A stretch of DNA of 64,000 nt from a bacterium (GCA_022825065.1 JAJDYR010000022.1:97021-161020), one strand, 5' to 3'. Shown: positions 1,482-29,626, numbered from the stretch's first letter. Program-made: numbers and translations. The notes: a model not told the origin generated them from the sequence alone.

Positions 1482-1484
1482 AAT

Positions 1485-4904: not shown

Positions 4905-4906
4905 AC

Positions 4907-5305: not shown

Positions 5306-5498
5306 ATCACCACCAAGTCCAACGGGTTTTAGATTTCAAAATCAGGGCGGAATTGATTATAGGTCGTCTTTAAATCCTCGGGAATCAACCGCATGCCGCC
5401 GGGGACAGGAATCAGACGATGCCCCCTTCCCGATGAGGCACAGTGTGCTTATGAAAAAGGCCGGTTGTTCCTGCGGGCGTCACTCCCGATCTTACCAC

Positions 5499-8361: not shown

Positions 8362-8458
8362 GCGACCAACCTCCAGAATCCTTCACGATGAAGGGATCGT
8401 GGACGTATCGGCTATATGTGAACGCCCGGGCAATGCGAGTGCTCTCGAGAGAACTCGC

Positions 8459-9415: not shown

Positions 9416-9543
9416 AAGATCAGGCTCCCCGTATCTGTATGTCTCGGCTGTCTAGAATCGAATTCCCATGCGCCACCGGATCGTATGCTCTATCATTTTG
9501 GGCGTCAACACGATAACGCCATTATCGTTTCGTTTTTTATTCT

Positions 9544-10497: not shown

Positions 10498-10514
10498 CGT
10501 CCGAACCTCATTGC

Positions 10515-12194
10515 TCAGGATTTGCTCCATGCGAGGCGGGTGAACCGGCACCAGCAATCATACGAGGAAGAATCTATTTTTTTCGCCGCGAAAATATAGA
10601 AACAGGCGGCCAGTGATACCTCGAGCAGCATCATCACCAGTTTCAGGGCCGACGAGCCCTGCGAATCCCAAAATTGCAGATGAACGAGTTGAAGGTGAAC
10701 GAAATACGCGAGCAACCCCGTCAGGATTCCAAGCCCCAGAAGCCTGCCCAGGGAATGCGCCAACTCCTTTTTCGGGAAATCGCTCCACTCCCGCATGACG
10801 CCTCTCAGCAACAACACCGCGTTCAAAGCGCTCGAGCACGACGTGGCGAGCGCAAGGCCGATAAACCCGAGCGGAAGCATCAGGGCGACGCTGAGCACTA
10901 CGTTCGCGAGCACGGAGATATTGGCGCACTTCACCGGGAAACTCGTGTTCAATCGAGCGTGGAACACCCCGGCCAAAAGCCGCGTGACGCCGAAAAACAT
11001 CAGCCCGACTGCGTAAGCCTGCAAGGCGGCTGCGCTTGCGACGGTATGGGTTTGCGTAAAGGCGCCTCGTTCGAAAATGACCTCCATGATCGGATGAGCC
11101 AGAGCCATCAGGCCGAACGTAGAAGGAATCGTGATGAACAGCGTCAGTCTCCCCGCTTCGAGCATGGTGTTGCGCTCGGAGTCTCCGGATGCGGCATTTT
11201 CCCTGTTTTTCGCCGCATAATCCGACAAGACCGGCAATACGGCGGACACCACCGCGAGACTCAATATGCCGTGAGGAAGCTGGACCAACCGGTTCGCATA
11301 GTAAAGATAGGAAATGGAGCCCTCGGCCAGGAACGAAGCCAGCCAGCGATCAACGAGAACATTGACCTGAAAAATAGCGCCTCCAAGAGCTGCCGGCCCC
11401 ATCAGAGCCAGGCATCTGCCGACGCCCTCCACCCGCCACGGGATGGAGGGAAGCGGCAAAATCCGCAGTTTCCCCATGAAGGGGAGCTGGAAAAAAAACT
11501 GCGCAGCCCCGCCGATGACGACGGCCCAGGCGAGCCACCGAATCGCCTCCGCCCTGGTCACCAAATAACCCGCCAACAAAAGGGCGATGATGATGACCAC
11601 GTTCTGGAGCGCGGGCGCGAAAGCGGGCACGAAGAAGCGGCGCGCCGCGTTCAACATGCCGGCCGCGACCGCCCACAGGCCGATAAAAATAATGAATGGG
11701 AACATGATTCTGGTCAGTTGCGCGGCAAGGCGCAGTTTTTCCGGGTTGCTCGAAAAACCGGGCGCCAGCCCTCTCATCAAAGGTTCTGCGAACCAGATCC
11801 CGACCGCACAGCCCACGCCTCCCGCGAGGATGAGAAACACCAACATGCCGCCGGCGAATTTTTTGGCCTCTCTGGCTCCGGATTGTTCACGCACGTCGGA
11901 GTAGACGGGAAGAAACGAGGAACTCAGCGCGCCTTCCATGAACATGCGCCTGAAGAGGTTGGGAATCGCGAAGGCGACGAAAAAAGCATCGGCCATCATC
12001 GCGGCGCCGAAGAATTTGGCGATCAGCAAATCACGGAAAAAACCCGCAACCCGACTCAGGAGAGTCGCCAGACTGACGGGACCCGCAAACCTGGAAATGC
12101 TCTCCTCCGCAGCGGCATCACCATTTCCTGCCGACGCAGCGGCAGGAACATTTTTTTCCCGTTCCGGATGAGGGGATTCAGGTGGTGTGGTCAC
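10515..12194 (-). CDS. murJ: Lipid II flippase MurJ (MviN)
   Basis: 'SRVAGFFRDLLIAKFFGAAMMADAFFVAFAIPNLFRRMFMEGALSSSFLPVYS'. 559 aa, multi-TM. Confidence 0.85.
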   Translation of the reverse strand: MTTPPESPHPEREKNVPAAASAGNGDAAAEESISRFAGPVSLATLLSRVAGFFRDLLIAKFFGAAMMADAFFVAFAIPNLFRRMFMEGALSSSFLPVYSDVREQSGAREAKKFAGGMLVFLILAGGVGCAVGIWFAEPLMRGLAPGFSSNPEKLRLAAQLTRIMFPFIIFIGLWAVAAGMLNAARRFFVPAFAPALQNVVIIIALLLAGYLVTRAEAIRWLAWAVVIGGAAQFFFQLPFMGKLRILPLPSIPWRVEGVGRCLALMGPAALGGAIFQVNVLVDRWLASFLAEGSISYLYYANRLVQLPHGILSLAVVSAVLPVLSDYAAKNRENAASGDSERNTMLEAGRLTLFITIPSTFGLMALAHPIMEVIFERGAFTQTHTVASAAALQAYAVGLMFFGVTRLLAGVFHARLNTSFPVKCANISVLANVVLSVALMLPLGFIGLALATSCSSALNAVLLLRGVMREWSDFPKKELAHSLGRLLGLGILTGLLAYFVHLQLVHLQFWDSQGSSALKLVMMLLEVSLAACFYIFAAKKIDSSSYDCWCRFTRLAWSKS

Positions 12195-12221
12195 AAAATT
12201 CCTGGCGCCGGGGCGGAGAAC

Positions 12222-12250
12222 TTGACAACCCTTTGTTCCGTGGTATTTTA
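12222..12250 (+). promoter_or_regulatory. Putative sigma70-type promoter for rpsT: TTGACA (12222-12227), about 16-17 bp spacer, TATTTT/ATTTTA (12244-12250)
   Basis: Read directly: 'cTTGACAaccctttgttccgtggTATTTTAcc' in the murJ/rpsT divergent intergenic region. Confidence 0.35.
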
Positions 12251-12312
12251 CCGGGGCTGTGAAACAGCCTCAAGGGAAACATTTCAACTATATTCACGGA
12301 GAATGAAACAAA

Positions 12313-12567
12313 TTGCCACATATTCGTTCGGCCAAAAAGCGCAATCGTCAAAATATCGTTCGCCGCGCCAGAAACCGCGCTATTCGTACGCAGTTTCGCA
12401 ACACCATCAAACAACTCTTGGATAGCGAAGAAAACCCCGAGGAACTGCTGAGACAAGCCCAGTCGCAACTGGACCGCGCAGCCACCAAAGGAATTATCCA
12501 CCAGAAAACAGCGTCGAGACGCGCGGGAAGATTGGCCAGGCGAATTCACGCGGCCTCTGCGAAATAG
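12313..12567 (+). CDS. rpsT: 30S ribosomal protein S20. TTG start, as in E. coli rpsT.
   Basis: '(M)PHIRSAKKRNRQNIVRRARNRAIRTQFRNTIK...'. 84 aa, basic. Confidence 0.8.
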   Translation: MPHIRSAKKRNRQNIVRRARNRAIRTQFRNTIKQLLDSEENPEELLRQAQSQLDRAATKGIIHQKTASRRAGRLARRIHAASAK

Positions 12568-13611
12568 CTAGGCAACCTTGTGCGTTCCGCTTCCGGCGGA
12601 ACGCACGTCCACCAAGAACAACTCGAGCGCCTGCCGAGCCGCCCTCACGTCGCTCGTCCGCTTGAGCTTGCGATCCACCTGAAGCAATTTCCCGTACAAC
12701 TCACGCAAATGGGCCGAACCCAGCCCCCTGACCTGATTCTCAAGCCTTTTCCCCACAAAAGGCGGCAGACCCAGCACCTGAGAAATCCCCTGGGCGCCCC
12801 GGCCGTTTCGAATCAAGGCCTTTGAAATCGTCCAGCGCCTGATCAAATTGCGCAACACACCGACGAAAACAACGGGGTGTTCGGTTTCCATCATCCGGCG
12901 CAAGAGAACCAGGGTTCCACTCAAGCTCCCCTGGCTGAGCGAATCACCCAGCTTGTAGAGCAACTCCTCTCTGGAGTGTCCGATGATTTCACGAATCTCA
13001 TCTTCGCCGGCAAGTGTTCCCGGCATCACGAATGAGGCGATCTTCTCGAGCTCGGTGCTGAGCCTCATCATGGAGGGCTTGACCATTTCGACCAGCAAAC
13101 CGGCGGCTTCCGGACGCAACTCGAATCCCAACTCCACAGCGCGCCCATGAAGCCATTTCTTTAATTCTTCCCCCTCCAAACTATCCACCCGGCAAACCAC
13201 GCTCCCCTTTACCAGGCGCTGGAAGAAAGTGGTTCGCATGTCGATGTTTTCCGCGCAGAAAACAAGAACCGTGGACTCGGACGGGTGCTCGAGATAAGAG
13301 AGAAGGATGGATTCATCCCTCCCGCCCGGCCTGGCGAAATTGAGGACTTCTACGAGGCGTCTCTCCGCGATGAACGGCAGCGTCTGGGCAACGGCGATGA
13401 TTTCGGACGCATCAGCCTCAGTCCAGTCGAAACGGTCATGGTTGAAATCACCCGGCTCATCACCAAAAACCTTATGGCGAACAACGCGCAGGTATTCATC
13501 CCGCAAAAAGGAATCCTCACCCTCCAAAAGGTATACGGGTTGAATCGGCGAGTTTTTCACATCTGAGAGCGCCGCCAGGGAACTCTTCGGCTTTTTGCGG
13601 CTCGGGGACAA
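12568..13611 (-). CDS. holA: DNA polymerase III delta subunit
   Basis: 347 aa. 'VYLLEGEDSFLRDEY...' N-terminal pattern. lptE-holA adjacency. Confidence 0.75.
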   Translation of the reverse strand: MSPSRKKPKSSLAALSDVKNSPIQPVYLLEGEDSFLRDEYLRVVRHKVFGDEPGDFNHDRFDWTEADASEIIAVAQTLPFIAERRLVEVLNFARPGGRDESILLSYLEHPSESTVLVFCAENIDMRTTFFQRLVKGSVVCRVDSLEGEELKKWLHGRAVELGFELRPEAAGLLVEMVKPSMMRLSTELEKIASFVMPGTLAGEDEIREIIGHSREELLYKLGDSLSQGSLSGTLVLLRRMMETEHPVVFVGVLRNLIRRWTISKALIRNGRGAQGISQVLGLPPFVGKRLENQVRGLGSAHLRELYGKLLQVDRKLKRTSDVRAARQALELFLVDVRSAGSGTHKVA

Positions 13612-13612
13612 C

Positions 13613-14149
13613 CTAAAAACCCTCTAACACGAGGCTCACGAGGTCTTCCGACAGTGAGTCGGCTGCTTGTTGATTGGCGTTCGAGCGGTTTGCGTCGCTT
13701 CGCGCGATGGATGAGGAAACCGCGAATTCGGCATAAGACTCCATATCCTGATTGATGAGCAATTTCCCCCGCTCTTTGTCACGCAGCCGTATGCGGGTGC
13801 GCACAACGACACGATACTGCAAAGCCCTGTCAGTCCGGGTGAACCCAATCGGCGAGAGACGATACTCGCGTAAAACGCCTTCGAGAGCGACGTCCGCATC
13901 GGGGGAGCCGGAAACCCGGAGGCGACCGTCCCGCAGGAACCTTCCTCTCACCGCTTTCGTGACGGCGCGCCCCAGGCCCGGCTCGTTCGTCTGGTTCAGG
14001 AATGGTGGTATCGAAATCGTTCGAACGTCTTTCAGGTTCCCGGGGCGAAGCGTTCCCTCAAGATCGTAGCCGCAGCCCGCCGCCAGGAAAACGATTAGCA
14101 GGAGTGAGAAACGGAGCGTGCGAATCATCCTCATAAGCACCCCACTCAA
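13613..14149 (-). CDS. lptE: LPS-assembly lipoprotein LptE (RlpB)
   Basis: Lipobox 'LLLIVFLAAGCGYDL'. Sits immediately upstream of holA. Confidence 0.65.
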   Translation of the reverse strand: MSGVLMRMIRTLRFSLLLIVFLAAGCGYDLEGTLRPGNLKDVRTISIPPFLNQTNEPGLGRAVTKAVRGRFLRDGRLRVSGSPDADVALEGVLREYRLSPIGFTRTDRALQYRVVVRTRIRLRDKERGKLLINQDMESYAEFAVSSSIARSDANRSNANQQAADSLSEDLVSLVLEGF

Positions 14150-14700
14150 ATGAAGACCTCCAGGGAGAGTTCCCGGTTTTTCACGCTGCTGAAAGCAATT
14201 TGCTCGCTCAGCGCGACCAACTCGTCATAATTCTCGTCATCCGGTTCGCAGACGAGAATATCGACATCCCAAGGGTTTCCGATGACGCCCCGTATCGCGC
14301 CGTTCATGATCTCCGTAGCCACAGGGGCGAAGCCGTCGGGGAGTTGCGCAAAGCCTGAAACCTCCAGCGACAAATTCTTCGCCGACGTCTTCATCATTCT
14401 TCCGAAAATCTCCTTCGCGCACCGGTAGAGCTTCGTCAGGGTCAAGTCCTCCAAAGAGCCGACTCCTGCGAACAAAACATATTCGGGCGCGAGTCGCCCT
14501 TTTGAAGCCAGCATGGCCTGGGATTCCCATACACCGCTCAATTTGCCTTGTTGCACCAGGCGGCTCGCCTCGTTCTCCAGCAAGCGATCGATCGCTTCCA
14601 ACCGCCCCTGAAACGGAAAATCTTCCACCGCGAACATGGAAACGGCGGCGAAGCTCTTCACCTCGTGCAATCCCCGAGGAAGCAAGCGAAGGCGAATCAC
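14146..14700 (-). CDS. Hypothetical protein resembling a standalone N-terminal domain of M17 leucyl aminopeptidase (PepA-N-like). No catalytic domain.
   Basis: 'QGKLSGVWESQAMLASKGRLAPEYVLFAGVGSLEDLTLTKLYRCAKEIFGRMMKTSAKNLSLEV' fits the Peptidase_M17_N pattern '...G..GE.L.L......rVLLVGLGk..eLT.e.lRraaa.a.r.l...ak...v.l'. Start overlaps the nusB stop. Confidence 0.4.
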   Translation of the reverse strand: MIRLRLLPRGLHEVKSFAAVSMFAVEDFPFQGRLEAIDRLLENEASRLVQQGKLSGVWESQAMLASKGRLAPEYVLFAGVGSLEDLTLTKLYRCAKEIFGRMMKTSAKNLSLEVSGFAQLPDGFAPVATEIMNGAIRGVIGNPWDVDILVCEPDDENYDELVALSEQIAFSSVKNRELSLEVFI

Positions 14701-14701
14701 C

Positions 14702-15118
14702 CTAGACCGCCATTTTCTCTTGATGGAGACGATCCAGAATGCCGTTCACGAATCCGGGCGCATTCTCTGGTCCATACCGCTTGGCCAGGCGAATGGCTTC
14801 ATCCATCGTAACCGCAGGCGGGATATCCGGCAGGAAATACATTTCGCAAACGCCCAGGCGCAAGATGCTCCTCGATACAGAATCCATGCGTTCGAGCGAC
14901 CAACTCGCGCTCGCTTCGGTGAGTATATCGTTAATCTGCCGGTTTTTCTCCAGCATGATCGCCATCAACCTGTCGGCGAACTTTTTTGAACTCTCGCTCG
15001 CCGGATGCAACCGCCAATAACGCTCGACTTCTTCCGGTGTCAGACTTCCGATGCGATCCGTATGATAGAGGATTTGAAACGCAAGCTCTCGCCCTCCCCT
15101 TCTGTTCTCGACCATCAC
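14702..15118 (-). CDS. nusB: Transcription antitermination factor NusB
   Basis: '[15 protein letters not shown]...', '[38 protein letters not shown]'. 138 aa. Confidence 0.85.
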
Positions 15119-15630
15119 TTCCCCTCTTCGAGAGCGTCGTTTCCATCCCTGTCCATTTTCGAGAATAAATTCGCCATCTCCACGGCCGCCAGGGCGCCTT
15201 CGTATCCCTTGTTTCCCATCTTTGTTCCCGAACGCTCGATGGCCTGTTCAATCGTATCCGTCGTGACAACGCTGAATATGGTCGGCACCCCCGTCCGGGC
15301 GCCCACCTGGGCGATGCCCTTCGTCGCTTCGGCGCACACCAAATCGTAGTGGGAGGTAGCGCCCCGTATCACGCATCCCAGGCAGATGATGGCGTCGTAA
15401 TTTTGTGATTCCGCCATCTTCATCGCAGCCGCCGGAATCTCGAACGAACCCGGCACCTGCACGTGCGCTATGTCGCCCGCGGAAACGCCGCATTGGCGCA
15501 AAGCCGTCTCGGCCCCTCGGACAAGGTGCGTCACTACAAAATCGTTAAACCGCGACGAGACGAGGCCAATCCGCAGGCCCCGCCCGTTGAGATCGCCTTC
15601 CACCGGATTACCCATTGACTCTCCAAGCAC
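15115..15630 (-). CDS. ribH: 6,7-dimethyl-8-ribityllumazine synthase
   Basis: '[31 protein letters not shown]...[40 protein letters not shown]'. Confidence 0.85.
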
Positions 15631-15633
15631 GTT

Positions 15634-16866
15634 TTATGGACGCTGCAAGTAGGATTCCTTGCCGTCCTTCCTCTTCTTTTGCATGGACGGCAAAGGCGGC
15701 TCCATGTCCACCGCCACCCTGTCTTCGAGTTCGAGGCCATAGCCTTCGAGCGCAACAATCCTGCGCTCATCATTCGTCATGATCCGAATCCGGCGCAAGC
15801 CCAGGTCCACGAGGATCTGGGCGCCTATGCCGTAATCGCGCAATCCCTGGAACGGCGCGCTCTTGATCCTGATTTTCTCATCCACCTCACGCGCGCCGGC
15901 GGCCATCTGCTCTTTTCTGGAAAACTCCTCTCCCATCGAATCGGGCTGTAAAAATACCAACACACCCTTGCCCGCTTCCTGAATCTTGGCCAGCGCGCTT
16001 CTGATCCTGTCCGGACAATCGGAGCGTAAAAGCGCCAGCAAATCCCAGATGGCATTCACCGGCTGCACCCGAATGTGGGTGGGCTCGTCCGGGTTCAAGT
16101 CCCCCATCACCAAAGCGGCGTGAATCCTTCCGCTGCTTTGATTGTGGTACGCATACACCTTGAAAGTGCCGAATACCGTCGGCACCTCGGCCTCCTCCAC
16201 ACGCTCCACAAGACGATCGTGACGCATGCGGTAAGCGATGAGATCCTTGATGGTCACAAGGGAGAGATTATTCTTTTCCGCCACCTTTCGCAGGTTGGGC
16301 AGACGCGCCATCGAACCGTCTTCGTTCAATACTTCACAAAGAACACCCGCGGGCTGAAGGCCGGCCAGACGAGCCAAATCCACCGTGCCCTCCGTGTGGC
16401 CTGCTCTCCTGAGCACGCCCCCCGGCTGCGCCCGCAGCGGAAAAATATGGCCCGGCGTCACGAGGTCCGACGGTCTGGCGTCTTCCTGTATGGCGGTTTG
16501 TATGGTATGGGCCCTGTCGAAGGCGCTGATGCCTGTGGTGACGCCCTCGCGCGCTTCTATGGAAACCGTGAAAGCCGTGCCGAAAGCGGAGCCGTTCTCG
16601 CGGCTGGGCACCATCATGGGAAGACCCAGCGATTCCACCTTCTCCGGCGTGAGCGCGAGACAGACGAGGCCACGCGCATGTTTCGTCATGAAGTTGATCG
16701 CCTCGGGCGTCACCCTCTCGGCCGCCAGGATGAAATCGCCTTCGTTCTCGCGGTCCTCATCATCCACCAGGACGACGATGCGGCCCTCGCGGATATCGCC
16801 AATCGCCTCTTCAATCGTGGAGAAAGGACTCGCGCCCAAATCCTTTTCCTCCCTCGGCTCAGGCAT
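15634..16866 (-). CDS. ribBA: Bifunctional 3,4-dihydroxy-2-butanone-4-phosphate synthase / GTP cyclohydrolase II
   Basis: 'IVVLVDDEDRENEGDFILAAERVTPEAINFM' (DHBP synthase) plus a C-terminal GTP cyclohydrolase II region. 410 aa. Confidence 0.9.
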   Translation of the reverse strand: MPEPREEKDLGASPFSTIEEAIGDIREGRIVVLVDDEDRENEGDFILAAERVTPEAINFMTKHARGLVCLALTPEKVESLGLPMMVPSRENGSAFGTAFTVSIEAREGVTTGISAFDRAHTIQTAIQEDARPSDLVTPGHIFPLRAQPGGVLRRAGHTEGTVDLARLAGLQPAGVLCEVLNEDGSMARLPNLRKVAEKNNLSLVTIKDLIAYRMRHDRLVERVEEAEVPTVFGTFKVYAYHNQSSGRIHAALVMGDLNPDEPTHIRVQPVNAIWDLLALLRSDCPDRIRSALAKIQEAGKGVLVFLQPDSMGEEFSRKEQMAAGAREVDEKIRIKSAPFQGLRDYGIGAQILVDLGLRRIRIMTNDERRIVALEGYGLELEDRVAVDMEPPLPSMQKKRKDGKESYLQRP

Positions 16867-21392: not shown

Positions 21393-23591
21393 TTATTTCG
21401 TCGCCCTTAACTGAATTTTCGTGAAATCCGCGTTGGCCGAAAACAGCGCGCCCACGCCGGCCATCAGCGCAAGACGGTTTTTCCGCAAGGCGGCGTCCTC
21501 GTCCATCACCATCACCTCATCGAAAAAACCATCCACCACGGGCCGGATTTCCGCGATGGCGGCGTTCACGGAAACATAGGCCTCCTCCAGGGAGGCGGCG
21601 TCCTCCGCCCGGACGTTCGCCAACGCTTCTTCCACCGATTTTGAAACAGCGCCCAGGGATGCGTTCAGCTTTTTCTCGGCGTCATCTACGAGAAGCGCCT
21701 CATCCAGGCTGTCCGCCGCATCACGTTCACCGCCCTGATTCGCCTGGCGGATAATGTTGCTCACCCGCTTGAAGGTCGTCGTGAGGGGCTCGAAGGTTTC
21801 TTCGCTGGACGCCAACCGCTCCAGTGCGCGGAGCCGCGCCCGCGCGTCTATCACATCGCGCCAGCCCGAGTCGTCTCCTGCCGCCAGCACCGCTTCCACC
21901 AGGTCGCCTCGCGCCCCGCCGCGAGAGAGGTGGGCGGACACCCGGTTGCGGATAAAAACCAGAATCCTCTCAACCACCTCGTCGGCATCACCTTTGAACT
22001 TGCCCTGCAAAGGTTCGCTCGCGGCCTCCACCCATTCGGATAACGAGATCCTGAAACCCTTATCCTCCAGGATGAGCAAAATCGCGTTGGCCGCGCGCCT
22101 GAGTGCGTAAGGGTCCTCCGAACCACTGGGCAGATAGCCCAGGCCCACCATGCCGACGATGGTGTCCATGCGGTCGGCAAGCCCCACGATGGCGCCTGCA
22201 CGGCCTCCCGGCAGGTCGTCCCCCTCTCCCCTGGGGAGATAATGCTCATATACGGCGCGGGACACCGCTTCGTCCCTGCCCTCGAGCTCGGCATAGCGCC
22301 GGCCCATGACGCCCTGAAGTTCGGGGAACTCATAGACCATGCCGCTGGTCAAATCCGCCTTGCACAGAGACGCCGCCTCGTCCACGGTTTTCGCCAGCGC
22401 GGCGTCGCCCGGCGCGAGTCTTTCGCACAACCATGCGCCCAGGCGCCTGAAGCGCTCGACCTTGTCCCAACTCGTGCCCAGCTTCGGGTGATAGACCACG
22501 CCCTTCAACCCCTCCGCCATGTCGACGAGGGGCGTTTCGAGGTCCTGTCGCCAATAAAAATCCGCGTCCTCCAACCTCGCGCGCACGACGCGCTCATAGC
22601 CCTTCCGCACCACGCTCATATCGTTCGCCCGCGTGTTGCTCACTCCGATGAAGCAGGGAATGAGCCGCTCTCCACCCTTTTCCCTGAGCGCAAAACACCT
22701 TTGGTGCACCTCCAGGGTGGAGATGATGACCTCATCGGGCAGGTCCAGAAATTTATCGTCAAACCCGCACGCCACCGGAAACGGCCACTCCACCAGATGC
22801 GCCACCTTCTCCACCAGGCGCTCCACGGCCTCCGCGTCCGCCGCGGGTACACCTCCCTGGGACCCGGCCGCCTCCAGGACGGACGCACGCACCATGGGGA
22901 TGCGTCCGCCACCCTTTCCGTCATCGACAAAAGGCTCTACATTATTCTCATGCAACACTTGAATATAATCCTGAAAACTACTGATATTTAATTTATTATT
23001 TCCGTGAAACCTATGTCCGAATGTGACTGAACCGAAAGGCGGGAGCGATGCGCCCCCATCCGATGCGGGGCCATCGACGCTCTCTTCACCATAGACTGCC
23101 AGAACCCATTGCACGGGCCGGACAAATGAAAACCTGCCGGCTCCCCAGCGCATGGATTTAGGGGACGGCAAATCCTGGATGAGTTTCGTCAGCAAGGGCC
23201 CCAGAACGGTTTTGGCCTCATTCCCCAAGTCTTCTCTGAAATACATCAGGCGCGCCCCCTTGGGCGTGTCCACCTGCTTGAGCTCGGACACCTCCGCCCC
23301 GTTCGTCCGGGCGAAACCGAGGGCCGCTTTCGTCGGGTTCCCGTCCTCATCGAATGCGTTTCTAACGGGGGGACCCAGGATTTCCTCCTGGAGCGGCTTC
23401 TGTCGCTCCGCCAGATCGGCCACATGCAGGACGAGCCGTCTCGGTGTCCCGAACGTTTCCAAACCCTCGAAAGCGAGACGCGCTTCGTTAAAGGCCGCTT
23501 CCGATCGCGCCTTCAGTGCGGCGAGCATCCCCGGCATATAGGTGGAGGGGATCTCCTCGGTCCCGATTTCAAAAAGCAGTTCTTTGCCCAA
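21393..23591 (-). CDS. glyS: Glycine--tRNA ligase beta subunit
   Basis: 'MGKELLFEIGTEEIPSTYMPGMLAAL'. 732 aa. Directly downstream of glyQ. Confidence 0.9.
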   Translation of the reverse strand: MGKELLFEIGTEEIPSTYMPGMLAALKARSEAAFNEARLAFEGLETFGTPRRLVLHVADLAERQKPLQEEILGPPVRNAFDEDGNPTKAALGFARTNGAEVSELKQVDTPKGARLMYFREDLGNEAKTVLGPLLTKLIQDLPSPKSMRWGAGRFSFVRPVQWVLAVYGEESVDGPASDGGASLPPFGSVTFGHRFHGNNKLNISSFQDYIQVLHENNVEPFVDDGKGGGRIPMVRASVLEAAGSQGGVPAADAEAVERLVEKVAHLVEWPFPVACGFDDKFLDLPDEVIISTLEVHQRCFALREKGGERLIPCFIGVSNTRANDMSVVRKGYERVVRARLEDADFYWRQDLETPLVDMAEGLKGVVYHPKLGTSWDKVERFRRLGAWLCERLAPGDAALAKTVDEAASLCKADLTSGMVYEFPELQGVMGRRYAELEGRDEAVSRAVYEHYLPRGEGDDLPGGRAGAIVGLADRMDTIVGMVGLGYLPSGSEDPYALRRAANAILLILEDKGFRISLSEWVEAASEPLQGKFKGDADEVVERILVFIRNRVSAHLSRGGARGDLVEAVLAAGDDSGWRDVIDARARLRALERLASSEETFEPLTTTFKRVSNIIRQANQGGERDAADSLDEALLVDDAEKKLNASLGAVSKSVEEALANVRAEDAASLEEAYVSVNAAIAEIRPVVDGFFDEVMVMDEDAALRKNRLALMAGVGALFSANADFTKIQLRATK

Positions 23592-23601
23592 ACTGAAACC
23601 T

Positions 23602-24579
23602 CTATTCTTCGCCCACGTTCGACTTCACTTTTTCCGCATCGTATTGCGCGGCGTAGAGGGCGAGATGGTCCTTTCGCTGCGCCTCTTCCCTGATGAGAGG
23701 GAAACCCGCCTCGTAGCGGGATTTCAGATAACTCTCCGCGCATGCGCGCGCCATTTTTCTGATTCTCCCGATGTAGCGCGCCCGCTCACTTACGCTGATC
23801 GCGCCCCGCGCATCCAGAAGGTTGAAGGTGTGCGAACACTTGAGCGCGTGATCGTAGGCGGGAAACGTGAGGCCCTTCTCCACGAGGCGCAACCCCTCGG
23901 CCTCGTATTTATCAAAGATATCGAAATGGATTTTTACGTCCGCCTCCTCGAAATTGTAGTGGCTGAACTCCACTTCCGTCTGGTGGTGCACGTCGGCGTA
24001 CCGGACGACTCCGCCATCGGTATCCCGCGCCCAGACGAGATCGTACACGCTTTCCACCCCTTGCAGGTACATGGCGATGCGCTCGAGCCCGTAGGTCAAT
24101 TCCGCGGAAACCATCTCCAGGTCCAGCCCGCCCGCCTGCTGAAAATACGTGAACTGCGTGACCTCCATGCCGTCGAGCCAAACCTCCCAGCCCAGACCCC
24201 ATGCGCCCAGATTCGGGGATTCCCAATCGTCCTCGACGAAGCGGATGTCGTGATCGAGCGGGTTGATTCCCAAACTCTTCAGGCTTTCGAGGTACTGCTC
24301 CTGCACGTCGATGGGCGAGGGCTTCAAAATCACCTGGTATTGATAATAATGCTGGAGCCTGTTCGGGTTCTCTCCGTAGCGGCCGTCCGTGGGCCTTCTG
24401 CTGGGCTCGACGTAGGCCACCTTCCAGGGTTCGGGGCCGAGGGCGCGCAAAAAAGTGGCCGGGTTCATGGTGCCCGCGCCCACCTCGATGTCGTATGGCT
24501 GCTGGATGACGCATCCCTTTTGCGACCAGAACTTCTCCAGCCCCATGATCACTTCCTGGAACGTCAAGGCGTCGCTCAA
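23602..24579 (-). CDS. glyQ: Glycine--tRNA ligase alpha subunit
   Basis: '[83 protein letters not shown]'. Confidence 0.9.
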
Positions 24580-25784
24580 CCGATAAACTCCTTGTGCAGG
24601 ACGCGCACCGCATTCTCGGAATCCGCCTGGCGAACCACAACGGATATGGAAATCTCGGAAGTCGAAATCATCATGATGTTGATGCGGCTTCTCGCCAAAG
24701 CGGAGAAAACGCGCGCCGCCACGCCGGCCTGGCTTTTCATGCCCACGCCCACGACGGAGACTTTCGCGATGTCGTCATCGCGGGAGATGGTGGCTCCGCC
24801 GAAGGATTCATTCGATTCCACCATAATCTGTTCCGCCTGCTGCGCCATGTCGCTGTTCACCGTGATGGAGATGTCGGTCAGGCTGTTTTCGCTCACGTTC
24901 TGGACGATCATGTCCACCATGATGGATTTCTCGGCCAACTGGCCGAAAAGAGCGGCGGCGATTCCGGGCCTGTCGGGCACGGCGCTTATCGTGAGTTTCG
25001 ATTGTTTCGAATCGCAACTCACGCCGCGAACGGCGGGTGCCTCGATTCCCGTCGACTCTGGAATGATCAACGTTCCCTCTCCTTCATCAAACGCGGAGCG
25101 GACGACGAGTGGGAGGTCATACTTCGCCGCCAGATCCACAGAGCGCGCCTGCAGCACTTTCGCGCCCAGGGACGCGAGTTCCATCATCTCCTGGAACGAT
25201 ATCTGCTCCATGCGCTTCGCGTCGGGCACAAGGCGCGGGTCGGCCGTGTATACCCCGTCCACATCGGTATAAATCTCGCAGCGGTCCGCTTCAAGCGCCG
25301 CGGCCAACGCCACGGCGGTGAGGTCGGAGCCCCCGCGCCCCAGCGTCGTCTCCTCGTCGAACTCATCGACTCCCTGAAATCCCGCGGCGACGACCACCTT
25401 TCCCCCGTTGAGTTCCTTGAGAATCCTCGCGGGGCGGATGGAGCGAACGCGGGCGCGGGTATGGGCGCCCTCCGTCAGAATGCCCGCCTGCCCGCCCGTC
25501 AAGGATATCGCCGGGATTCCGGCCGCATCGAGAGCGATGGCCAGAAGCGAACTCGCAATGCGTTCGCCCGAGGTGAGCAGCAAATCCATCTCCCGCCCCA
25601 CGGGCTGAGGCGAAAGCGCATGCGCGAGGCGAATCAGCTTATCGGTCTCTCCCGCCATCGCGCTCACCACGACGATGATCCGCTCCCAGGAACCCTTCGC
25701 CGCCGACACCCGCTTCACCACGCCGCGAATCTTCTCCAGGTTCGCGACCGAGGTGCCGCCGAATTTTTTTACGACCAGACTCAT
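24576..25784 (-). CDS. lysC: Aspartate kinase (monofunctional, with C-terminal ACT domains)
   Basis: '[19 protein letters not shown]...[13 protein letters not shown]'. 402 aa. 4-bp ATGA overlap with glyQ. Confidence 0.85.
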
Positions 25785-25793
25785 CTTATCCCA

Positions 25794-27044
25794 TCATCCA
25801 CTGAACAATCGTTTCTTCACCGCGTCGAGTGAATGGACGCGCCCCGCTCGAGCCAGTTCTTCGGAAAAACCGACCGCCGGTTTTCTCCGCCCCCCCTCGC
25901 CGCCGCGAACCATTTCCCAGAGGGCGGCCAACCCGCCCGGCCGTTTCGGCGGCGTCAGATTCTCTCCGTCGAAATCCGCCATGGCGAACGGAACGGCATC
26001 GGCGATCCATTCCTGGGATTCCACGCTGAACCCATGATCCACCATCACGAGGATGCGGCAAGGCTGGTCCAGTTTTTCCAGCAACGACGACATCAGCGCG
26101 GCATCGAATCTCTCGATGGCCCCGATTTTCTCCTCGGGTTCGCGCCACGGGGATATGCTGTCCACATCCTCGAGCAGGAAGACGAAATCATGGCTCGAAA
26201 GCGCCTCGCTCACCCTGGCGGACACCTCCTCCCCCGGCTCATATACATCCGCGCCCCCCAGTTTGGCAAAGCCCTTTGCGAGTTGCGAGTCGGTTATCAG
26301 CGCCGAATCCCTGCCCCCCGTCTTTTCGGACATTCTCCCCACCTCCTCGTGGAGGCCGCCGCCCCAAAGCCACACGGAGTTCGCAGCGAACATACGGGTT
26401 TGCGCCTTTTCCCTCAAACCCGCATGCGTGGAAAGCACCATCTGGGAATCGTTGACGAAATGCACGAAGCGCCGCGCCGCCTCCGCCACCGGCATGTGCT
26501 CCCCGATGGGCATTCCGGTAATCGCATGCGGGGGCGAGAAGCCACGAAAGGATTCCGGTGAAAGCGGCGCGCCCGCACGCCGATAATAGAGAAGCGCCTC
26601 GCAGCCGCCCAGGGGTTCGAAACGGAAAGATTCGCCCTCATCGGGCGGCATGTGGCGCTCCAGATAAGCTATGAGTTCGCGGTTCTCCTCATCCGTGACG
26701 CCGAAGCCCGTCGGGTCCAGCATGACGACGCTCGTCGCGCCGGGCTTCAAGCACACGAAGTTGAGCCGGAAGACCGCTTCACCGGCTTCGGGGAGAACGT
26801 CCGCTGCGGCAGCCAGCATCAGGCCGGAGGAGAGTGCGCCCGAGGAGCCGAAAAAATGATTCAGAAACCCGTCCAGCGAGGGATACGCATCATCGGCTGC
26901 GGGAGACCACGCGCCGGAAAAGCCCGAACCCGCCACCCGATCCAGCACCGGCGTCCGCGCTCTTTGCAGGGGTGTTTCGCCCCCAAAATCCGCCACCGGC
27001 CTGTCGGCGAAACCGCGCGCGAGAACCACAAGGATTTTTCGCAT
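25794..27044 (-). CDS. Cofactor-independent phosphoglycerate-mutase-like metalloenzyme (archaeal-type ApgM family). Candidate non-orthologous homoserine kinase.
   Basis: 'MRKILVVLARGFADRPVADFGGETPLQRARTPVLDRVA' aligns to the ApgM N-terminus 'LILVGDGMADRP..LGGKTPLQ.AKTPNMD'. Sandwiched between lysC and hom. Confidence 0.65.
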   Translation of the reverse strand: MRKILVVLARGFADRPVADFGGETPLQRARTPVLDRVAGSGFSGAWSPAADDAYPSLDGFLNHFFGSSGALSSGLMLAAAADVLPEAGEAVFRLNFVCLKPGATSVVMLDPTGFGVTDEENRELIAYLERHMPPDEGESFRFEPLGGCEALLYYRRAGAPLSPESFRGFSPPHAITGMPIGEHMPVAEAARRFVHFVNDSQMVLSTHAGLREKAQTRMFAANSVWLWGGGLHEEVGRMSEKTGGRDSALITDSQLAKGFAKLGGADVYEPGEEVSARVSEALSSHDFVFLLEDVDSISPWREPEEKIGAIERFDAALMSSLLEKLDQPCRILVMVDHGFSVESQEWIADAVPFAMADFDGENLTPPKRPGGLAALWEMVRGGEGGRRKPAVGFSEELARAGRVHSLDAVKKRLFSG

Positions 27045-27068
27045 CAGGAAGAGCTCTCGTCTGCTCGA

Positions 27069-28397
27069 TCACATGAAAGCCATGCCGTCCGATTCCACGC
27101 GAACGAGCGCGTAAGTGGGCTGCACCACGTCGAGGCGGGAGATCTCCTCGAGCGCGTTTTGCATGTTCTCCTCCGTCGCCTTGTGGGTGAGCAGCACCAG
27201 ACGGGCATAGCCGTCCTCGTCGGCGCGGCCCTTCTGGACGACGGTTTCGAGGCTGATGTCGTGTTCGCCGAAAACACCGGAGATGCGGCTCAATACGCCA
27301 GGCTTGTCCAACGCCGCGAAGCGAACGTAGAAGCGCGTCGAAATTTCCCGCGGGGGGAGGATGTCGAGGCGCGCGCGCTGGTCCGGCAAAAAAGCGGCGG
27401 CGGGGATCCGCGAGTCGCCCCCGTTTTTCAGCCACCTCGCCACCTCGATGATGTCGCCCACCACGGCGGAGGCCGTAGCTTCGGAACCCGCGCCCTTGCC
27501 GATGAACACCTGCGGCCCGGCATTCACGCCCGAGACGGCCACCGCATTGTAGACCCCTCCCACCTGCGAGAGAGGATGACTTTCGGGAAGCATTGTCGGG
27601 TGAACGCGGATATCGAGTTTCCCCTCCCTCTCCTGCGCCATGGCGATGAGCTTGATCCGGTAGCCGAGTTCCTTGGCGATATCGATGTCGACGGACGTGA
27701 TGTTGCGGATCCCTTCGGTGTGGTAATCCTCGAGATCCACGGGCGTTCCATAGGCCAGGTTCGCCAGAATCGCTATCTTGTGCGACGCATCTACGCCGTC
27801 GATATCGAAAGCGGGGTCGGCCTCCGCGTAGCCGAGTTCCTGCGCGCGCTCCAGCGTTTCGCCGAAATCCGCACCCATCTCCGTCATGCAGCTCAGAATG
27901 TAGTTGCACGTGCCGTTCAAGATACCGGCGAGCCTCTCGATTTTGTCTGCGGCGAACGCCTCGCGCAGGTTTCTGACTATCGGAATGCCGCCCGCGACGG
28001 ACGCCTCGAAACCCAGCGGGCAACCCGCCTTCTCCGCAGCGGCGAATATCTCCTCCCCGTGAACGGCAAGCACCGCCTTGTTCGCGGTCACGACCGGCTT
28101 GTTCTTCTCGATCGCCCGCAGGATGTGGCGCCTGGCGTCATCCGTCCCGCCGATAAGTTCCGCGACCACGTGCACCTCGGGCGCGTCGATGACGGCCTCG
28201 AAATCCGTGCCCATATTCTCGGGCGCCACCCCGCGCGCCGTCTTTTTCTTCGTGAAAACGCTGCGGTCCGCAATTCTGGAGACGCACACCTCTACGCCGA
28301 GGCGTCTCTTGATCAACTCCCGCTGCTCGTCGAGCAGATTCACGACCCCGCTCCCGACGGTGCCCAAGCCCAATATGCCGACGCAAATTTTCTTCAT
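27069..28397 (-). CDS. hom: Homoserine dehydrogenase (with C-terminal ACT domain)
   Basis: 'MKKICVGILGLGTVGSGVVNLL...VTANKAVLAVHGEEIFAAAEKAGCPLGFEASVAGGIPI'. 442 aa. Confidence 0.85.
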   Translation of the reverse strand: MKKICVGILGLGTVGSGVVNLLDEQRELIKRRLGVEVCVSRIADRSVFTKKKTARGVAPENMGTDFEAVIDAPEVHVVAELIGGTDDARRHILRAIEKNKPVVTANKAVLAVHGEEIFAAAEKAGCPLGFEASVAGGIPIVRNLREAFAADKIERLAGILNGTCNYILSCMTEMGADFGETLERAQELGYAEADPAFDIDGVDASHKIAILANLAYGTPVDLEDYHTEGIRNITSVDIDIAKELGYRIKLIAMAQEREGKLDIRVHPTMLPESHPLSQVGGVYNAVAVSGVNAGPQVFIGKGAGSEATASAVVGDIIEVARWLKNGGDSRIPAAAFLPDQRARLDILPPREISTRFYVRFAALDKPGVLSRISGVFGEHDISLETVVQKGRADEDGYARLVLLTHKATEENMQNALEEISRLDVVQPTYALVRVESDGMAFM

Positions 28398-28423: not shown

Positions 28424-29626
28424 CTAGCTCGCCGCCTGCTCGGGCGCTCTCTCCTGAAACAGGGGACGCAAGTTTCTGAGCGCCTGCCGCGTGCGGTGCT
28501 CATTCTCCACGAGCGCGAAGCGCACGTGCCCATCGCCCAACTCGCCGAAACCGACGCCGGGCGAGACGGCCACCTCGGCTTTCTTCAACAAGTATTTGGA
28601 AAACTCCAGAGAACCCATCTCCCGGAAGGCTTGTGGAATCTCCGCCCAAACGAACATCGTGCCCCTGGGCTTTTGAACGGGCCAGCCGATTCTCTCCAGC
28701 CCGTTGCACAGCGCGTCGCGGCGATTCTGGTAAATCTGCCGAATCTCCTCGACGCACTCCTGAGAGCCGTTGAGCGCGATGATCGAAGCGATCTGGATGG
28801 GCTGGAACGCGCCGTAATCGAGATAACTCTTGATGCGCCTGAGCGCGCCGACAATCTCGCGGTTCCCAACGGCGAAGCCCATCCGCCACCCCGGCATGGA
28901 GTAGCTCTTGGAGAGCGAGAAAAATTCCACACTCACATCCTTCGCGCCCTTCACCTGCAGAATGCTGGGCGGCTCATAGCCGTCGAAGCCTAAGTCGGCA
29001 TAGGCGAAATCATGAACCACGATGAGGTTGTATTCTTTTGCGAAGGCGACGACTTTCTCGAAAAAATCCAGGTCCACGCAAACCGTGGTGGGGTTGTGCG
29101 GGAAACTCAAGACGAGGATTTTCGGCCGCGGCCAAATCGGGCGGATGATGTCGGTCATGTTTTCGAAGAAATCATCCCCCTGAGACAGCGGCACGTGAAC
29201 CACGTTGCCGTTCGCCAGGACCATGGCGTACGTGTGGATGGGGTATGTGGGGCTCGGCACCATGACCAGATCGCCCGGGTTCGTGATGGCCAACGCCAGA
29301 TGGGAGAGCCCCTCCTTCACCCCGATGGTGACGATAGCCTCCTCTTCGGGGTCGATATTCACGTCATAGCGGCGGCCGTACCAGCCCGCGATGGCCGCCC
29401 TCAGCCGGGTGATGCCGCGCGAAGCGCTGTAGCGATGATTCCTGGGGTTCGTCGCCGCCTCCACCAGTTTTTCCACGATGTGCGGCGGGGTGGCGAGATC
29501 GGGGTTCCCCATACCGAAGTCGATGATGTCGTCACCCCGGCGGCGGGCCTCGATCTTCAACTCGTCTACGCTCGCAAAAACATAGGGCGGCAGGCGGGTA
29601 ATGCGTTGAAACTCATACATGTTCAA
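28424..29626 (-). CDS. PLP-dependent class I aminotransferase (AlaC/YfdZ-like alanine/aspartate transaminase family)
   Basis: '[44 protein letters not shown]...[20 protein letters not shown]'. 400 aa. Confidence 0.75.

What the first reader, a model, noticed from the sequence alone, without database searches (positions are those of the whole stretch)
25794..28397. ApgM-like 'phosphoglycerate mutase' wedged between aspartate kinase and homoserine dehydrogenase: candidate non-orthologous homoserine kinase with an altered N-terminal metal motif
No thrB is present in the window, yet lysC (24576-25784), an archaeal-type cofactor-independent PGM-like gene (25794-27044) and hom (27069-28397) are contiguous on one strand with gaps of 9 and 24 bp. 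In several thrB-lacking lineages an ApgM-family protein in exactly this context has been proposed, and reported, to act as homoserine kinase. Here the near-invariant N-terminal 'GDGMAD' of bona fide ApgM reads 'ARGFAD' ('LVVLARGFADRPV'). This is consistent with a changed substrate or metal environment and not a glycolytic mutase.
Basis: partly seen in the sequence, partly recalled or inferred. Interest (0 to 1): 0.55.

Follow-up and report, generated by a model that had tools for sequence, protein, structure and literature searches.

The report
Catalytically eroded HomK-like protein, Nitrospinota
The gene between homoserine dehydrogenase and aspartate kinase descends from the 'alternative homoserine kinase' HomK, but it has lost the metal-binding and nucleophile residues that chemistry needs, so it is most likely a conserved non-catalytic relic and the organism's real homoserine kinase remains unidentified.

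Summary
The 64-kb window holds no thrB, thrC or gpm.

X does descend from HomK (BT2402/TIGR02535), the ApgM-like enzyme shown to replace ThrB. But it fails every curated family cut-off: apgM 181 bits against 320, HomK 132 against 446.

Four of the seven catalytic positions are replaced, not just the N-terminal Asp: Asp→Arg10, Ser→Leu57, His→Pro299 and His→Trp346. The surviving Asp-His pair drifts in sister species.

The same slot (lipA-alaT-hom-X-lysC-glyQS-ppdK) is conserved in more than 35 Nitrospinota/'Tectomicrobia' species. It holds a graded series from a fully intact enzyme (P0188) to a wholly eroded one (P0047).

X is under purifying selection (dN/dS 0.18; hom 0.06). Constraint has moved from the active-site loops to the cap domain, notably the helix 'RRFVHFVNDSQM'.

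Best reading: a HomK-derived pseudoenzyme kept for a ligand- or partner-binding role in the aspartate-pathway operon. Whether another homoserine kinase exists elsewhere in the genome could not be tested.

The parts
25794..27044 (-). X: 416-aa ApgM-fold protein, a HomK-derived and catalytically degenerate ortholog
   Evidence: - ORF.
- Scores fall below all NCBIfam cut-offs.
- AF2 model: pLDDT 86.8, pTM 0.87.
- Foldseek: 2zkt/3kd8, TM 0.68-0.73 at 20% identity.
- dN/dS 0.18.
27015..27017 (-). Arg10, replacing the first metal-ligand Asp (D9 of BT2402 and P0031)
   Evidence: - Alignments.
- Arg is invariant in 22/22 subclade-1 species.
- Other slot orthologs have G/S/V/N/A here, and Arg recurs once outside subclade 1 (P0025); intact P0188 has D.
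26871..26879 (-). Ser56-Leu57-Asp58, the former 'G-S-D' nucleophile motif. Leu57 aligns with the catalytic Ser, and Ser56 lies one residue upstream.
   Evidence: -.
- 'PSLDG' is fixed in subclade 1, with Cys once.
- Other lineages have A/G/P/T/R.
- The register is uncertain by one residue, and pLDDT here is 75-81.
26145..26165 (-). 'VDSISPW' (residues 294-300), the former D-x-x-x-H metal loop. Asp295 is kept and His→Pro299. Glu292 (26169-26171) sits at the HomK specificity position.
   Evidence: -.
- Residues 296-298 have pLDDT below 50.
- Conservation ratio to canonical is 0.52.
26034..26039 (-). Asp336-His337, the only surviving metal-ligand pair. It is drifting in sister species.
   Evidence: H→C in 4 species, H→A in L027 and D→A in L022. 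H→G in P0017.
26007..26009 (-). Trp346, replacing the last metal-ligand His
   Evidence: -.
- Trp is invariant in subclade 1.
- Elsewhere the position is Arg or deleted.
- P0188 and L033 keep His.
26430..26483 (-). Helix 188-205 'EAARRFVHFVNDSQMVLS', the most conserved element of the degenerate clade and variable in real enzymes. It is a candidate new interface or ligand site.
   Evidence: - Conservation is 0.83 in the clade against 0.33 in canonical enzymes.
- The motif is nearly complete in P0045 (nearly intact) and incipient in intact P0188.
26685..26777 (-). Cap-domain hairpin 90-120 'FRLNFVCLKPGATSVVMLDPTGFGVTDEE'. Constraint is gained here. The canonical motif 'D-x-S-A-G-H-I' is replaced by 'D-P-x-G-x-G'.
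   Evidence: It served as a clade-specific search pattern.
25869..25970 (-). C-terminal insertion (residues 359-392, 'PPKRPGGL..LW..'), absent from canonical enzymes
   Evidence: -.
- Part of it has low pLDDT, 381-389.
- A rudiment is present in P0188.
27069..28397 (-). hom, homoserine dehydrogenase with a C-terminal ACT domain, directly upstream of X
24576..25784 (-). lysC, monofunctional aspartate kinase with two ACT domains, 9 nt downstream of X
28424..29626 (-). Class I/II aminotransferase (AlaT/DapL-like), the first gene of the conserved alaT-hom-X-lysC run
21393..24579 (-). glyQ (23602-24579) and glyS (21393-23591). glyQ overlaps lysC by 4 nt. Both belong to the conserved syntenic block.

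Best explanation
X is the positional ortholog of a HomK-type homoserine phosphotransferase (ApgM fold, alkaline-phosphatase superfamily) that has become a pseudoenzyme.

**Shown.**
- The ancestral occupant of the hom-X-lysC slot in Nitrospinota was an intact two-metal, phospho-Ser enzyme. It survives in P0188 and P0046.
- In the lineage of this window both metal sites and the nucleophile were destroyed (R10, L57, P299, W346).
- Several other family-invariant motifs were lost.
- The protein's evolutionary rate roughly doubled.
- The ORF has nevertheless stayed intact and under purifying selection across the phylum.
- Constraint moved from the active-site loops to the cap domain (hairpin 90-120 and helix 188-205).

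**Inferred.**
- X can no longer transfer phosphate by the family mechanism.
- It is retained for a non-catalytic role that predates the loss of catalysis. That role would be binding a small ligand (a homoserine- or threonine-like amino acid) and/or a partner protein encoded in the same operon (Hom or aspartate kinase), so as to tune flux at the aspartate-pathway branch point.
- O-phosphohomoserine must then be made by another gene elsewhere in the genome.
For: 1. **Curated models.** X scores below all family cut-offs: apgM 181/320, PRK04200 148/426, TIGR02535 132/446. Canonical relatives pass all three.
2. **Catalytic signature.** It reads RLDPDHW, against DSDHDHH in 198 of 249 relatives. Only 38 of 92 canonical-invariant columns are kept.
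3. **Residual ligands drift.** H337→C/A/G and D336→A among orthologs of 68-85% identity.
4. **One slot, graded decay.** Signatures run P0188 DSDHDHH, P0045 DTDH.., L033 VTDHDHH, L035 SAAHDR-, L028 GAGDDGR, window RLDPDHW, P0047 GSD-NY-. All lie in lipA-alaT-hom-X-lysC-glyQS-ppdK synteny. The apgM-model score falls 392>294>230>226>202>181>87 (the 294 is a 323-aa partial sequence).
5. **Tree.** The slot proteins form one clade inside Glu-type HomK. The intact forms are basal with a normal branch length of 0.92. The degenerate forms reach 1.39-1.99, against 0.86±0.10 for canonical enzymes.
6. **Selection.** Median dN/dS is 0.18, against 0.05-0.14 for eight neighbouring genes.
7. **Constraint shift.** The ratio to canonical is 0.43 for the Ser loop, 0.52 for the DxxxH loop and 1.10 for the cap. 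Helix 191-205 scores 0.83 against 0.33. The new motifs are nearly complete in P0045 and partly present in intact P0188.
8. **Fold intact.** pLDDT is 86.8, but the former metal loop 296-298 falls below 50.
9. **Published criterion.** The HomK authors require the Ser and all metal ligands to call a HomK.
Against: - No biochemical or genetic data exist for any member of the clade.
- I could not show that another homoserine kinase (GHMP ThrB, APH-fold ThrB, or a second intact HomK) exists in these genomes. If none does, X remains the only pathway-linked candidate.
- Ser56 lies one residue from the nucleophile column and is nearly fixed in the subclade, so a register shift could preserve a Ser.
- Asp295 and Asp336 are nearly invariant in the subclade.
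- No partner or ligand is demonstrated. The proposed regulatory role rests only on operon position and the pattern of conservation.
Confidence: 0.6

Rival explanations
1. One reading: X is still the organism's homoserine kinase or phosphotransferase, a non-orthologous ThrB replacement working with a modified active site.
For: - HomK-lineage ancestry and the classic hom-adjacent context.
- Glu292 is retained at the HomK specificity position.
- No thrB in the window or in about 40 orthologous neighbourhoods.
- Purifying selection.
- Ser56, Asp295 and Asp336 are nearly fixed in the subclade.
Against: - Four of seven catalytic positions are replaced by residues that cannot ligate metal (Arg, Leu, Pro, Trp).
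- No common catalytic set is conserved across orthologs that share the same slot.
- Glu292 itself varies among close orthologs (Q/H/P/R).
- Constraint has left the active-site loops.
- Family-invariant motifs GVSYR, PVN and AVD are lost, and the GATGY..K loop is deleted.
- X fails the residue test used to annotate HomK.
Confidence: 0.12
2. X is a neofunctionalised enzyme. A new, metal-independent active site has formed on the remodelled cap domain (Arg191/Arg192/His195/Asp199 helix, hairpin 90-120) and catalyses a different reaction in aspartate-family metabolism.
For: - Constraint is gained on polar residues of helix 188-205 and the hairpin.
- The basal intact enzyme already has non-HomK cap residues and Ala at the specificity position, which suggests a substrate shift before the decay.
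Against: - No precedent for catalysis from that surface in this fold.
- The conserved residues fit an interface or ligand site equally well.
- His195 is Tyr in P0047 and Arg in P0188.
- The accelerated overall rate and dN/dS 2-3 times that of hom and lysC are more typical of relaxed constraint.
Confidence: 0.15
3. X is a functionless relic on its way to becoming a pseudogene, kept only because removing it would disturb translational coupling in the hom-lysC operon.
For: It is the fastest-evolving gene of the block, with progressive loss of family residues.
Against: - The full-length ORF is intact wherever the contig spans the gene (33 of the 35 species genomes, plus P0047/P0314-type marine lineages), down to 24-26% identity.
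- dN/dS of 0.18 is far below 1.
- 55 columns are invariant across the clade, with new motifs conserved more strongly than anything in the parent family.
Confidence: 0.05
4. X is a genuine cofactor-independent phosphoglycerate mutase (ApgM), as the JGI annotation and the Tara K15635 tag label members of this clade.
For: - ApgM fold.
- The best NCBIfam hit by score is the apgM subfamily model.
Against: - Below the apgM cut-off (181 against 320).
- Catalytic residues are lost.
- Glu, not the Lys of true mutases, at the specificity position.
- X nests in the HomK clade.
- N. gracilis carries a conventional gpmA.
Confidence: 0.01

Closest known systems
HomK / ThrB2 / TIGR02535 (BT2402 of Bacteroides thetaiotaomicron; DET_RS08350 of Dehalococcoides), a homoserine phosphotransferase that replaces ThrB
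   Same: - Same fold and same family lineage: X nests within Glu-type HomK sequences.
- Same kind of genomic context, adjacent to hom and/or aspartate kinase.
- Glu at the proposed specificity position in X.
- The basal occupant of the same slot (P0188) keeps the full catalytic set.
   Different: - X lacks the catalytic Ser and three of six metal-ligand side chains.
- X lacks further family-invariant motifs.
- X scores 132 bits against a 446-bit cut-off.
- X has a C-terminal insertion and new clade-specific cap motifs.
- X evolves about twice as fast.
Archaeal cofactor-independent phosphoglycerate mutase ApgM (PDB 2zkt from P. horikoshii, 3kd8/3idd from T. acidophilum)
   Same: Two-domain ApgM architecture. 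These are the best structural matches (TM 0.68-0.73) and the best PDB sequence match (E 1e-15).
   Different: - Only 20% identity.
- ApgM has Lys at the specificity position and a complete two-metal/Ser site.
- X has neither and is not glycolysis-linked.
Pseudoenzyme regulatory paralogs in amino-acid biosynthesis, for example HisZ, the catalytically dead HisRS paralog that regulates ATP-phosphoribosyltransferase HisG (from my own knowledge, not tested here)
   Same: - A homolog of a pathway-related enzyme.
- Catalytic residues lost.
- Retained under purifying selection.
- Encoded with the enzymes it could regulate.
   Different: - For HisZ the partner, complex and allosteric role are experimentally established.
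- For X no partner or ligand is known.
- X derives from an enzyme of the same pathway by in-place decay, not from a duplicated paralog (no duplication was detected).
[quoted passage not shown]
   Same: - Same slot in the same syntenic block.
- Share incipient clade motifs (RRLLRLITDGQ, DHTGGG, Cys98, Pro101) and a rudiment of the C-terminal insertion.
   Different: - All seven catalytic residues are intact.
- Normal evolutionary rate.
- They pass the apgM subfamily cut-off (392 bits) but not the HomK cut-off (368 against 446).
- Ala, not Glu or Lys, at the specificity position.

Membership tests
HomK (TIGR02535 / ThrB2) | Score at or above the curated TIGR02535 cut-off (446.3 bits) | tested here: not met
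   X scores 132.5 bits, and the match ends at residue 359 of 416. Canonical relatives score 483-559.
HomK (TIGR02535 / ThrB2) | Catalytic (phosphorylated) serine, S56 of BT2402 | tested here: not met
   - Leu57 occupies the column in four independent alignments.
- Ser56 lies one residue upstream, so the register is uncertain by one position.
- The column is not conserved across slot orthologs (A/G/P/T/R).
HomK (TIGR02535 / ThrB2) | Metal site formed by the N-terminal Asp (D9) plus the Asp-His pair (D346, H347) | tested here: not met
   - D→Arg10, invariant in the subclade.
- Asp336-His337 are present in X but drift in close orthologs: H→C/A/G, D→A.
HomK (TIGR02535 / ThrB2) | Second metal site: Asp and His of D-x-x-x-H plus the C-terminal His | tested here: not met
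   Asp295 is kept, but His→Pro299 and His→Trp346.
HomK (TIGR02535 / ThrB2) | Glu at the specificity-determining position (E299 of BT2402; Lys in mutases) | tested here: inconclusive
   - X has Glu292 at the column three residues before the D-x-x-x-H Asp. That column is Glu in 191 of 198 intact relatives and Lys in 2zkt and 3kd8.
- Close orthologs have Q/H/P/R there.
HomK (TIGR02535 / ThrB2) | Encoded next to threonine-pathway genes (hom, asd, thrC, aspartate kinase) | tested here: met
   hom-X-lysC with gaps of 24 and 9 nt, conserved in all 35 species genomes plus L042-L045.
HomK (TIGR02535 / ThrB2) | Genome lacks conventional thrB (complementary occurrence) | not testable with these tools
   - Only the 64-kb window and ±10 kb around orthologs could be read, and no thrB is there.
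HomK (TIGR02535 / ThrB2) | Forms O-phosphohomoserine / complements thrB | not testable with these tools
   This needs an experiment.
ApgM cofactor-independent phosphoglycerate mutase (TIGR00306 / K15635) | Score at or above the curated subfamily cut-off (320 bits) and the equivalog cut-offs | tested here: not met
   X scores 180.9 bits against 320, NF003242 148 against 426 and NF003104 82 against 489.
ApgM cofactor-independent phosphoglycerate mutase (TIGR00306 / K15635) | Two-metal centre plus Ser nucleophile; Lys at the specificity position | tested here: not met
   The signature is RLDPDHW, with Glu292 where mutases have Lys.
ApgM-type fold (alkaline-phosphatase superfamily core plus PhosphMutase cap) | Two-domain architecture recognisable by sequence and structure | tested here: met
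   - Pfam PF10143 and PF01676, both above gathering thresholds.
- AF2 pTM 0.87.
- Foldseek 2zkt_B E 1.5e-21, TM 0.68/0.73.
Pseudoenzyme (operational definition) | Clear homolog of an enzyme family, essential catalytic residues lost, yet maintained by purifying selection | tested here: met
   - Homology.
- Residue loss.
- dN/dS 0.18, with full-length ORFs wherever the contig spans the gene (33 of 35 species).
- Loss of activity itself is inferred, not measured.

The most novel reading that the evidence does not exclude
X is a dedicated non-catalytic subunit that docks onto homoserine dehydrogenase and/or aspartate kinase through the newly constrained cap-domain surface (helix 'RRFVHFVNDSQM' and hairpin 90-120). 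It would sense a pathway metabolite with the remnant substrate pocket and act as a HisZ-like allosteric module for the aspartate-family branch point. This would be a regulatory device not described for this pathway. It would have arisen by in-place decay of the pathway's own kinase after another enzyme took over phosphorylation of homoserine. A less likely but more radical alternative is that X still phosphorylates homoserine without metals.
Probability: 0.25. Interest if true: 0.75.

Novelty: new variant of a known kind. Interest (0 to 1): 0.58.

Why it matters
1. **Annotation.** Being hom-adjacent and ApgM-like is currently the main cue for calling HomK and closing the common 'missing thrB' gap. 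This clade shows the cue can mislead. NCBI calls these proteins hypothetical, while the JGI annotation calls one a phosphoglycerate mutase and a Tara member carries K15635, so pathway reconstructions of Nitrospinota may mis-score both glycolysis and threonine synthesis.

2. **Physiology.** Nitrospinota are the main marine nitrite oxidisers, and the cultured representative N. gracilis is a chemolithoautotroph. If the slot protein is dead, the enzyme that makes O-phosphohomoserine in them is an open, directly testable question.

3. **Enzyme evolution.** A single syntenic slot preserves a stepwise series from intact enzyme to fully eroded protein. New constrained motifs appear before catalysis is lost. 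This is an unusually clean natural record of how a pseudoenzyme forms, and each step can be tested by complementation.

Tried and rejected
- **thrB, thrC or a second family member near the gene.** tblastn with E. coli ThrB/ThrC and with canonical HomK found nothing in the window or in 40 loci.
- **Extending beyond the window edges.** Look-ups with the two edge ORFs found nothing on record.
- **Literature on threonine genes in Nitrospina.**
  - GapMind's supplements do not cover Nitrospinota.
  - The N. gracilis paper lists no thr genes. It does list an 'apgM' with a contig-13 locus tag, a ppdK with a contig-25 tag, and a gpmA. This hints at a second family gene but does not prove one.
  - Other searches were uninformative.
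- **Search for the N. gracilis slot ortholog.** A profile of Nitrospinaceae-type proteins returned no named hit.
- **P0315.** It was the best intact canonical hit to that profile, but it lies in a Planctomycete-like context and is irrelevant.
- **Possible Rosetta-stone fusions.**
  - P0324 (551 aa) is a frameshift read-through into lysC.
  - The roughly 1000-aa relatives have only the ApgM domains recognised, with an unannotated C-terminus and no Hom or AK domain.
- **Genuine glycolytic ApgM.** Rejected on cut-offs, residues and clade position.
- **Plain pseudogene.** Rejected on dN/dS and ORF integrity.
- **Arg10-Asp295 salt bridge replacing the metal.** I considered covariation as evidence for this. 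P0025 has Arg without the Asp and the signal is phylogenetically confounded, so I make no such claim.
- **Active-site geometry.** It could not be inspected because model coordinates are not exposed.
Full report
**1. Observation**

The minus strand carries, in transcription order:
- a class I/II aminotransferase (28424-29626)
- hom (27069-28397)
- a 416-aa ORF, here called X (25794-27044)
- lysC (24576-25784)
- glyQ and glyS

The gaps are 24 nt (hom-X) and 9 nt (X-lysC), and lysC overlaps glyQ by 4 nt. lysC and hom are unambiguous. X starts MRKILVVLARGFADRPV, so the quoted motif is exact.

Pfam annotation of the called ORFs across the window found no GHMP or APH-fold kinase, no threonine synthase and no gpmI/gpmA (six ORFs of 74-123 aa and argS were not scanned). 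tblastn with E. coli ThrB and ThrC was also negative.

**2. What X is by family and fold**

X has weak Pfam PhosphMutase and Metalloenzyme hits. It scores below every curated NCBIfam cut-off:
- apgM subfamily: 181 bits against 320
- PRK04200: 148 against 426
- 'proposed homoserine kinase' TIGR02535: 132 against 446

Its best solved relative is P. horikoshii ApgM 2zkt (E 1e-15). An AlphaFold2 model is confident (pLDDT 86.8, pTM 0.87). It matches 2zkt and 3kd8 at TM 0.68-0.73 with only 20% identity. The only segments with pLDDT below 50 are residues 296-298, the former metal loop, and 381-389, part of a C-terminal insertion.

**3. The relevant known family**

[quoted passage not shown] It has now been shown to complement E. 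coli thrB::kan, as has the diverged DET_RS08350 (bioRxiv 10.1101/2024.10.14.618325; earlier PMC7311316; PMC9026213).

Its authors define functional HomK by three things:
- a catalytic Ser
- six other metal-coordinating residues
- a specificity Glu, where true mutases have Lys

They annotate diverged hom-linked homologs only when these residues are conserved.

**4. Residue test**

The nearest canonical relatives, P0031-P0039, pass the TIGR02535 and PRK04200 cut-offs. They carry the signature D/S/D/H/D/H/H. X reads R10/L57/D295/P299/D336/H337/W346.

Among 249 near-full-length relatives:
- 198 have the intact signature
- 191 of those have Glu at the specificity column
- 10 have Thr as the nucleophile

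In X's own subclade (22 species) Arg10, Leu57, Pro299 and Trp346 are invariant. The surviving Asp336-His337 pair drifts: H→C/A/G and D→A.

Only 38 of 92 canonical-invariant columns survive. Further losses are GR.P.E, GVSYR (Arg→Glu), PVN, AVD, DH.TP, the C-terminal GH, and outright deletion of the GATGY.DT.Y..K loop.

One caveat: Ser56 lies one residue before the nucleophile column and is nearly fixed, so the register there is uncertain by one position.

**5. Distribution and synteny**

An exhaustive phmmer search of 1.84 billion representatives found only 9 proteins with E<1e-30. Scores then drop sharply to canonical enzymes.

A scan of GTDB species genomes found 35 species with the gene. Every record that names a taxon is Nitrospinota, Nitrospinaceae or 'Tectomicrobia'; 19 titles read only 'bacterium'. 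Every locus long enough shows argS-(SPOR)-lipA-alaT-hom-X-lysC-glyQ-glyS-ppdK.

X is always the most diverged gene of the block. In L001 it is 41% identical, against 67-80% for its neighbours.

Canonical HomK genes in other phyla also sit directly upstream of lysC.

**6. A decay series in one slot**

| Protein or locus | State | Evidence |
|---|---|---|
| P0188 / P0046 (P0046 named Nitrospinota) | Same slot, all seven catalytic residues | |
| L038 / P0045 | Keeps D1, D2 and H2 with a Thr nucleophile (contig ends before D3/H3/H4) | |
| L001 / L033 / L034 | Lose D1 and the Ser | |
| L035-L037 and L028-L031 | Keep one or two of seven (only D3 in most) | |
| Marine AT-rich forms P0047 / P0314 (Tara) | 24-26% identical and almost unrecognisable, yet in full synteny | |

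The apgM-model score falls monotonically along the series:

| Protein | apgM score (bits) |
|---|---|
| Canonical enzymes | 463-526 |
| P0188 | 392 |
| P0045 (323-aa partial) | 294 |
| L033 | 230 |
| L028 | 226 |
| L035 | 202 |
| X | 181 |
| P0047 | 87 |

A neighbour-joining tree puts all slot proteins in one clade nested within Glu-type HomK. The intact forms are basal with a normal root-to-tip length of 0.92, against 0.86±0.10 for canonical enzymes. The degenerate forms reach 1.39-1.99.

**7. Selection and where it acts**

Nei-Gojobori dN/dS was computed over 17 pairs:

| Gene | Median dN/dS |
|---|---|
| X | 0.18 |
| alaT | 0.054 |
| hom | 0.064 |
| glyQ | 0.085 |
| ppdK | 0.086 |
| lysC | 0.095 |
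| lipA | 0.11 |
| argS | 0.12 |
| glyS | 0.14 |

X is therefore functional but the least constrained gene of the block.

Column conservation within a diverse degenerate set, relative to canonical enzymes, shows where constraint sits:
- Ser loop: ratio 0.43
- D-x-x-x-H loop: ratio 0.52
- cap domain: ratio 1.10
- hairpin 90-110: about 0.65 against about 0.48
- helix 191-205 'RRFVHFVNDSQM': 0.83 against 0.33

Many of these clade-specific residues are already present in intact P0188, which has RRLLRLITDGQ and 'GGG' in place of the canonical 'AGH'. They are almost complete in L038, whose catalytic set is nearly intact. The new feature therefore arose before catalysis was lost.

**8. Mechanistic reading**

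Shown:
- X descends in place from an intact two-metal, phospho-Ser transferase of the HomK lineage.
- Both metal sites and the nucleophile are dismantled.
- No alternative catalytic set is shared by the orthologs.
- The protein is still selected, with constraint relocated to the cap domain.

Inferred:
- X cannot carry out the family's phosphoryl transfer.
- It is kept for a function that coexisted with catalysis in the ancestor. Most plausibly this is binding a pathway metabolite and/or Hom or aspartate kinase, which are encoded on either side of it in a tightly packed run of genes.
- Another gene must supply homoserine kinase activity.

**9. The main gap**

I could not establish whether these genomes carry ThrB (GHMP or APH-fold type) or a second intact HomK. 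The one lead is the N. gracilis genome paper (PMC3578206, Table S1):
- It lists a gpmA.
- It lists a 404-aa 'apgM' (NITGRv1_130028, 37% identical to a Geobacter protein).
- That locus tag lies on a different contig from ppdK (NITGRv1_250092), whereas X lies four genes from ppdK in every Nitrospinota locus examined.

This suggests a second family member outside the slot, but it is unverified.

**10. Novelty and verdict**

The held literature contains HomK only in the GapMind 2026 preprint. I found no description of degenerate, hom-linked HomK homologs.
- NCBI's pipeline names these proteins 'hypothetical'.
- The JGI annotation names one (P0312) a phosphoglycerate mutase, and the Tara member P0314 carries COG3635/K15635.

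I file X as a new variant of a known kind: a HomK-derived pseudoenzyme clade. The functional inference, a candidate homoserine kinase, is not supported by the residue evidence.

Noticed in passing
L045:10001-11227 (P0188) and L042:3783-4967 (P0046): These intact Nitrospinota slot enzymes have Ala at the HomK/PGM specificity position, where HomK has Glu and mutases have Lys. They also have 'GGG' where canonical enzymes have the cap motif 'AGH'. They pass the apgM cut-off but not the HomK cut-off. They may be a third substrate-specificity class of this family.
   Followed up: partly
Relatives found (no window coordinates): Ten of 249 canonical-length relatives carry Thr in place of the nucleophile Ser (signature DTDHDHH) with everything else intact. 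About eight singletons have scrambled signatures such as NAELSHY and EGSFNNN, which may be independent degenerate lineages or alignment errors.
   Followed up: no
P0097, P0123, P0127, P0146, P0151, P0180 (about 975-1100 aa) and P0177 (602 aa): These canonical ApgM/HomK domains are fused to a C-terminal extension of about 600 aa with no Pfam match. P0177 is fused to a HAD-family hydrolase. ThrH, the other known phosphoserine:homoserine phosphotransferase, is a HAD enzyme.
   Followed up: partly
window 28424-29626 (-): The aminotransferase just upstream of hom scores 646.7 bits against a 647-bit cut-off for alanine transaminase (PRK08175) and 580 bits for LL-diaminopimelate aminotransferase. It is syntenic with hom-X-lysC in almost every locus that extends far enough upstream (L034 gave no hit for it), so its true role in the aspartate family is unclear.
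   Followed up: no
window 14146-14700 (-): This 184-aa ORF between lptE and nusB matches only the N-terminal domain of M17 leucyl aminopeptidase (28 bits) and has no catalytic domain. It may be another stand-alone non-catalytic remnant.
   Followed up: no
N. gracilis Table S1 (PMC3578206): Cultured N. gracilis is annotated with gpmA plus a 404-aa 'apgM' (NITGRv1_130028) on a different contig from ppdK. This implies an ApgM-family gene outside the conserved slot, and it is a candidate for the real HomK of Nitrospinaceae.
   Followed up: partly
P0324 (cluster of P0029; 1.68-Mb ENA contig): This 551-aa 'protein' is a frameshift read-through from X into lysC and then into out-of-frame sequence. 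It is an indel error in the assembly, not a fusion.
   Followed up: yes
window 1-16000 versus the rest: G+C is 0.50-0.57 in the first 16 kb (sensor kinase, mutS, 7TM-HD, phoH, xerD, murJ, holA) and 0.59-0.67 elsewhere. AT skew also spikes at 10-14 kb.
   Followed up: no
Cluster annotations: Public pipelines annotate the same degenerate clade in conflicting ways. NCBI calls its members 'hypothetical protein'. [quoted passage not shown]
   Followed up: yes
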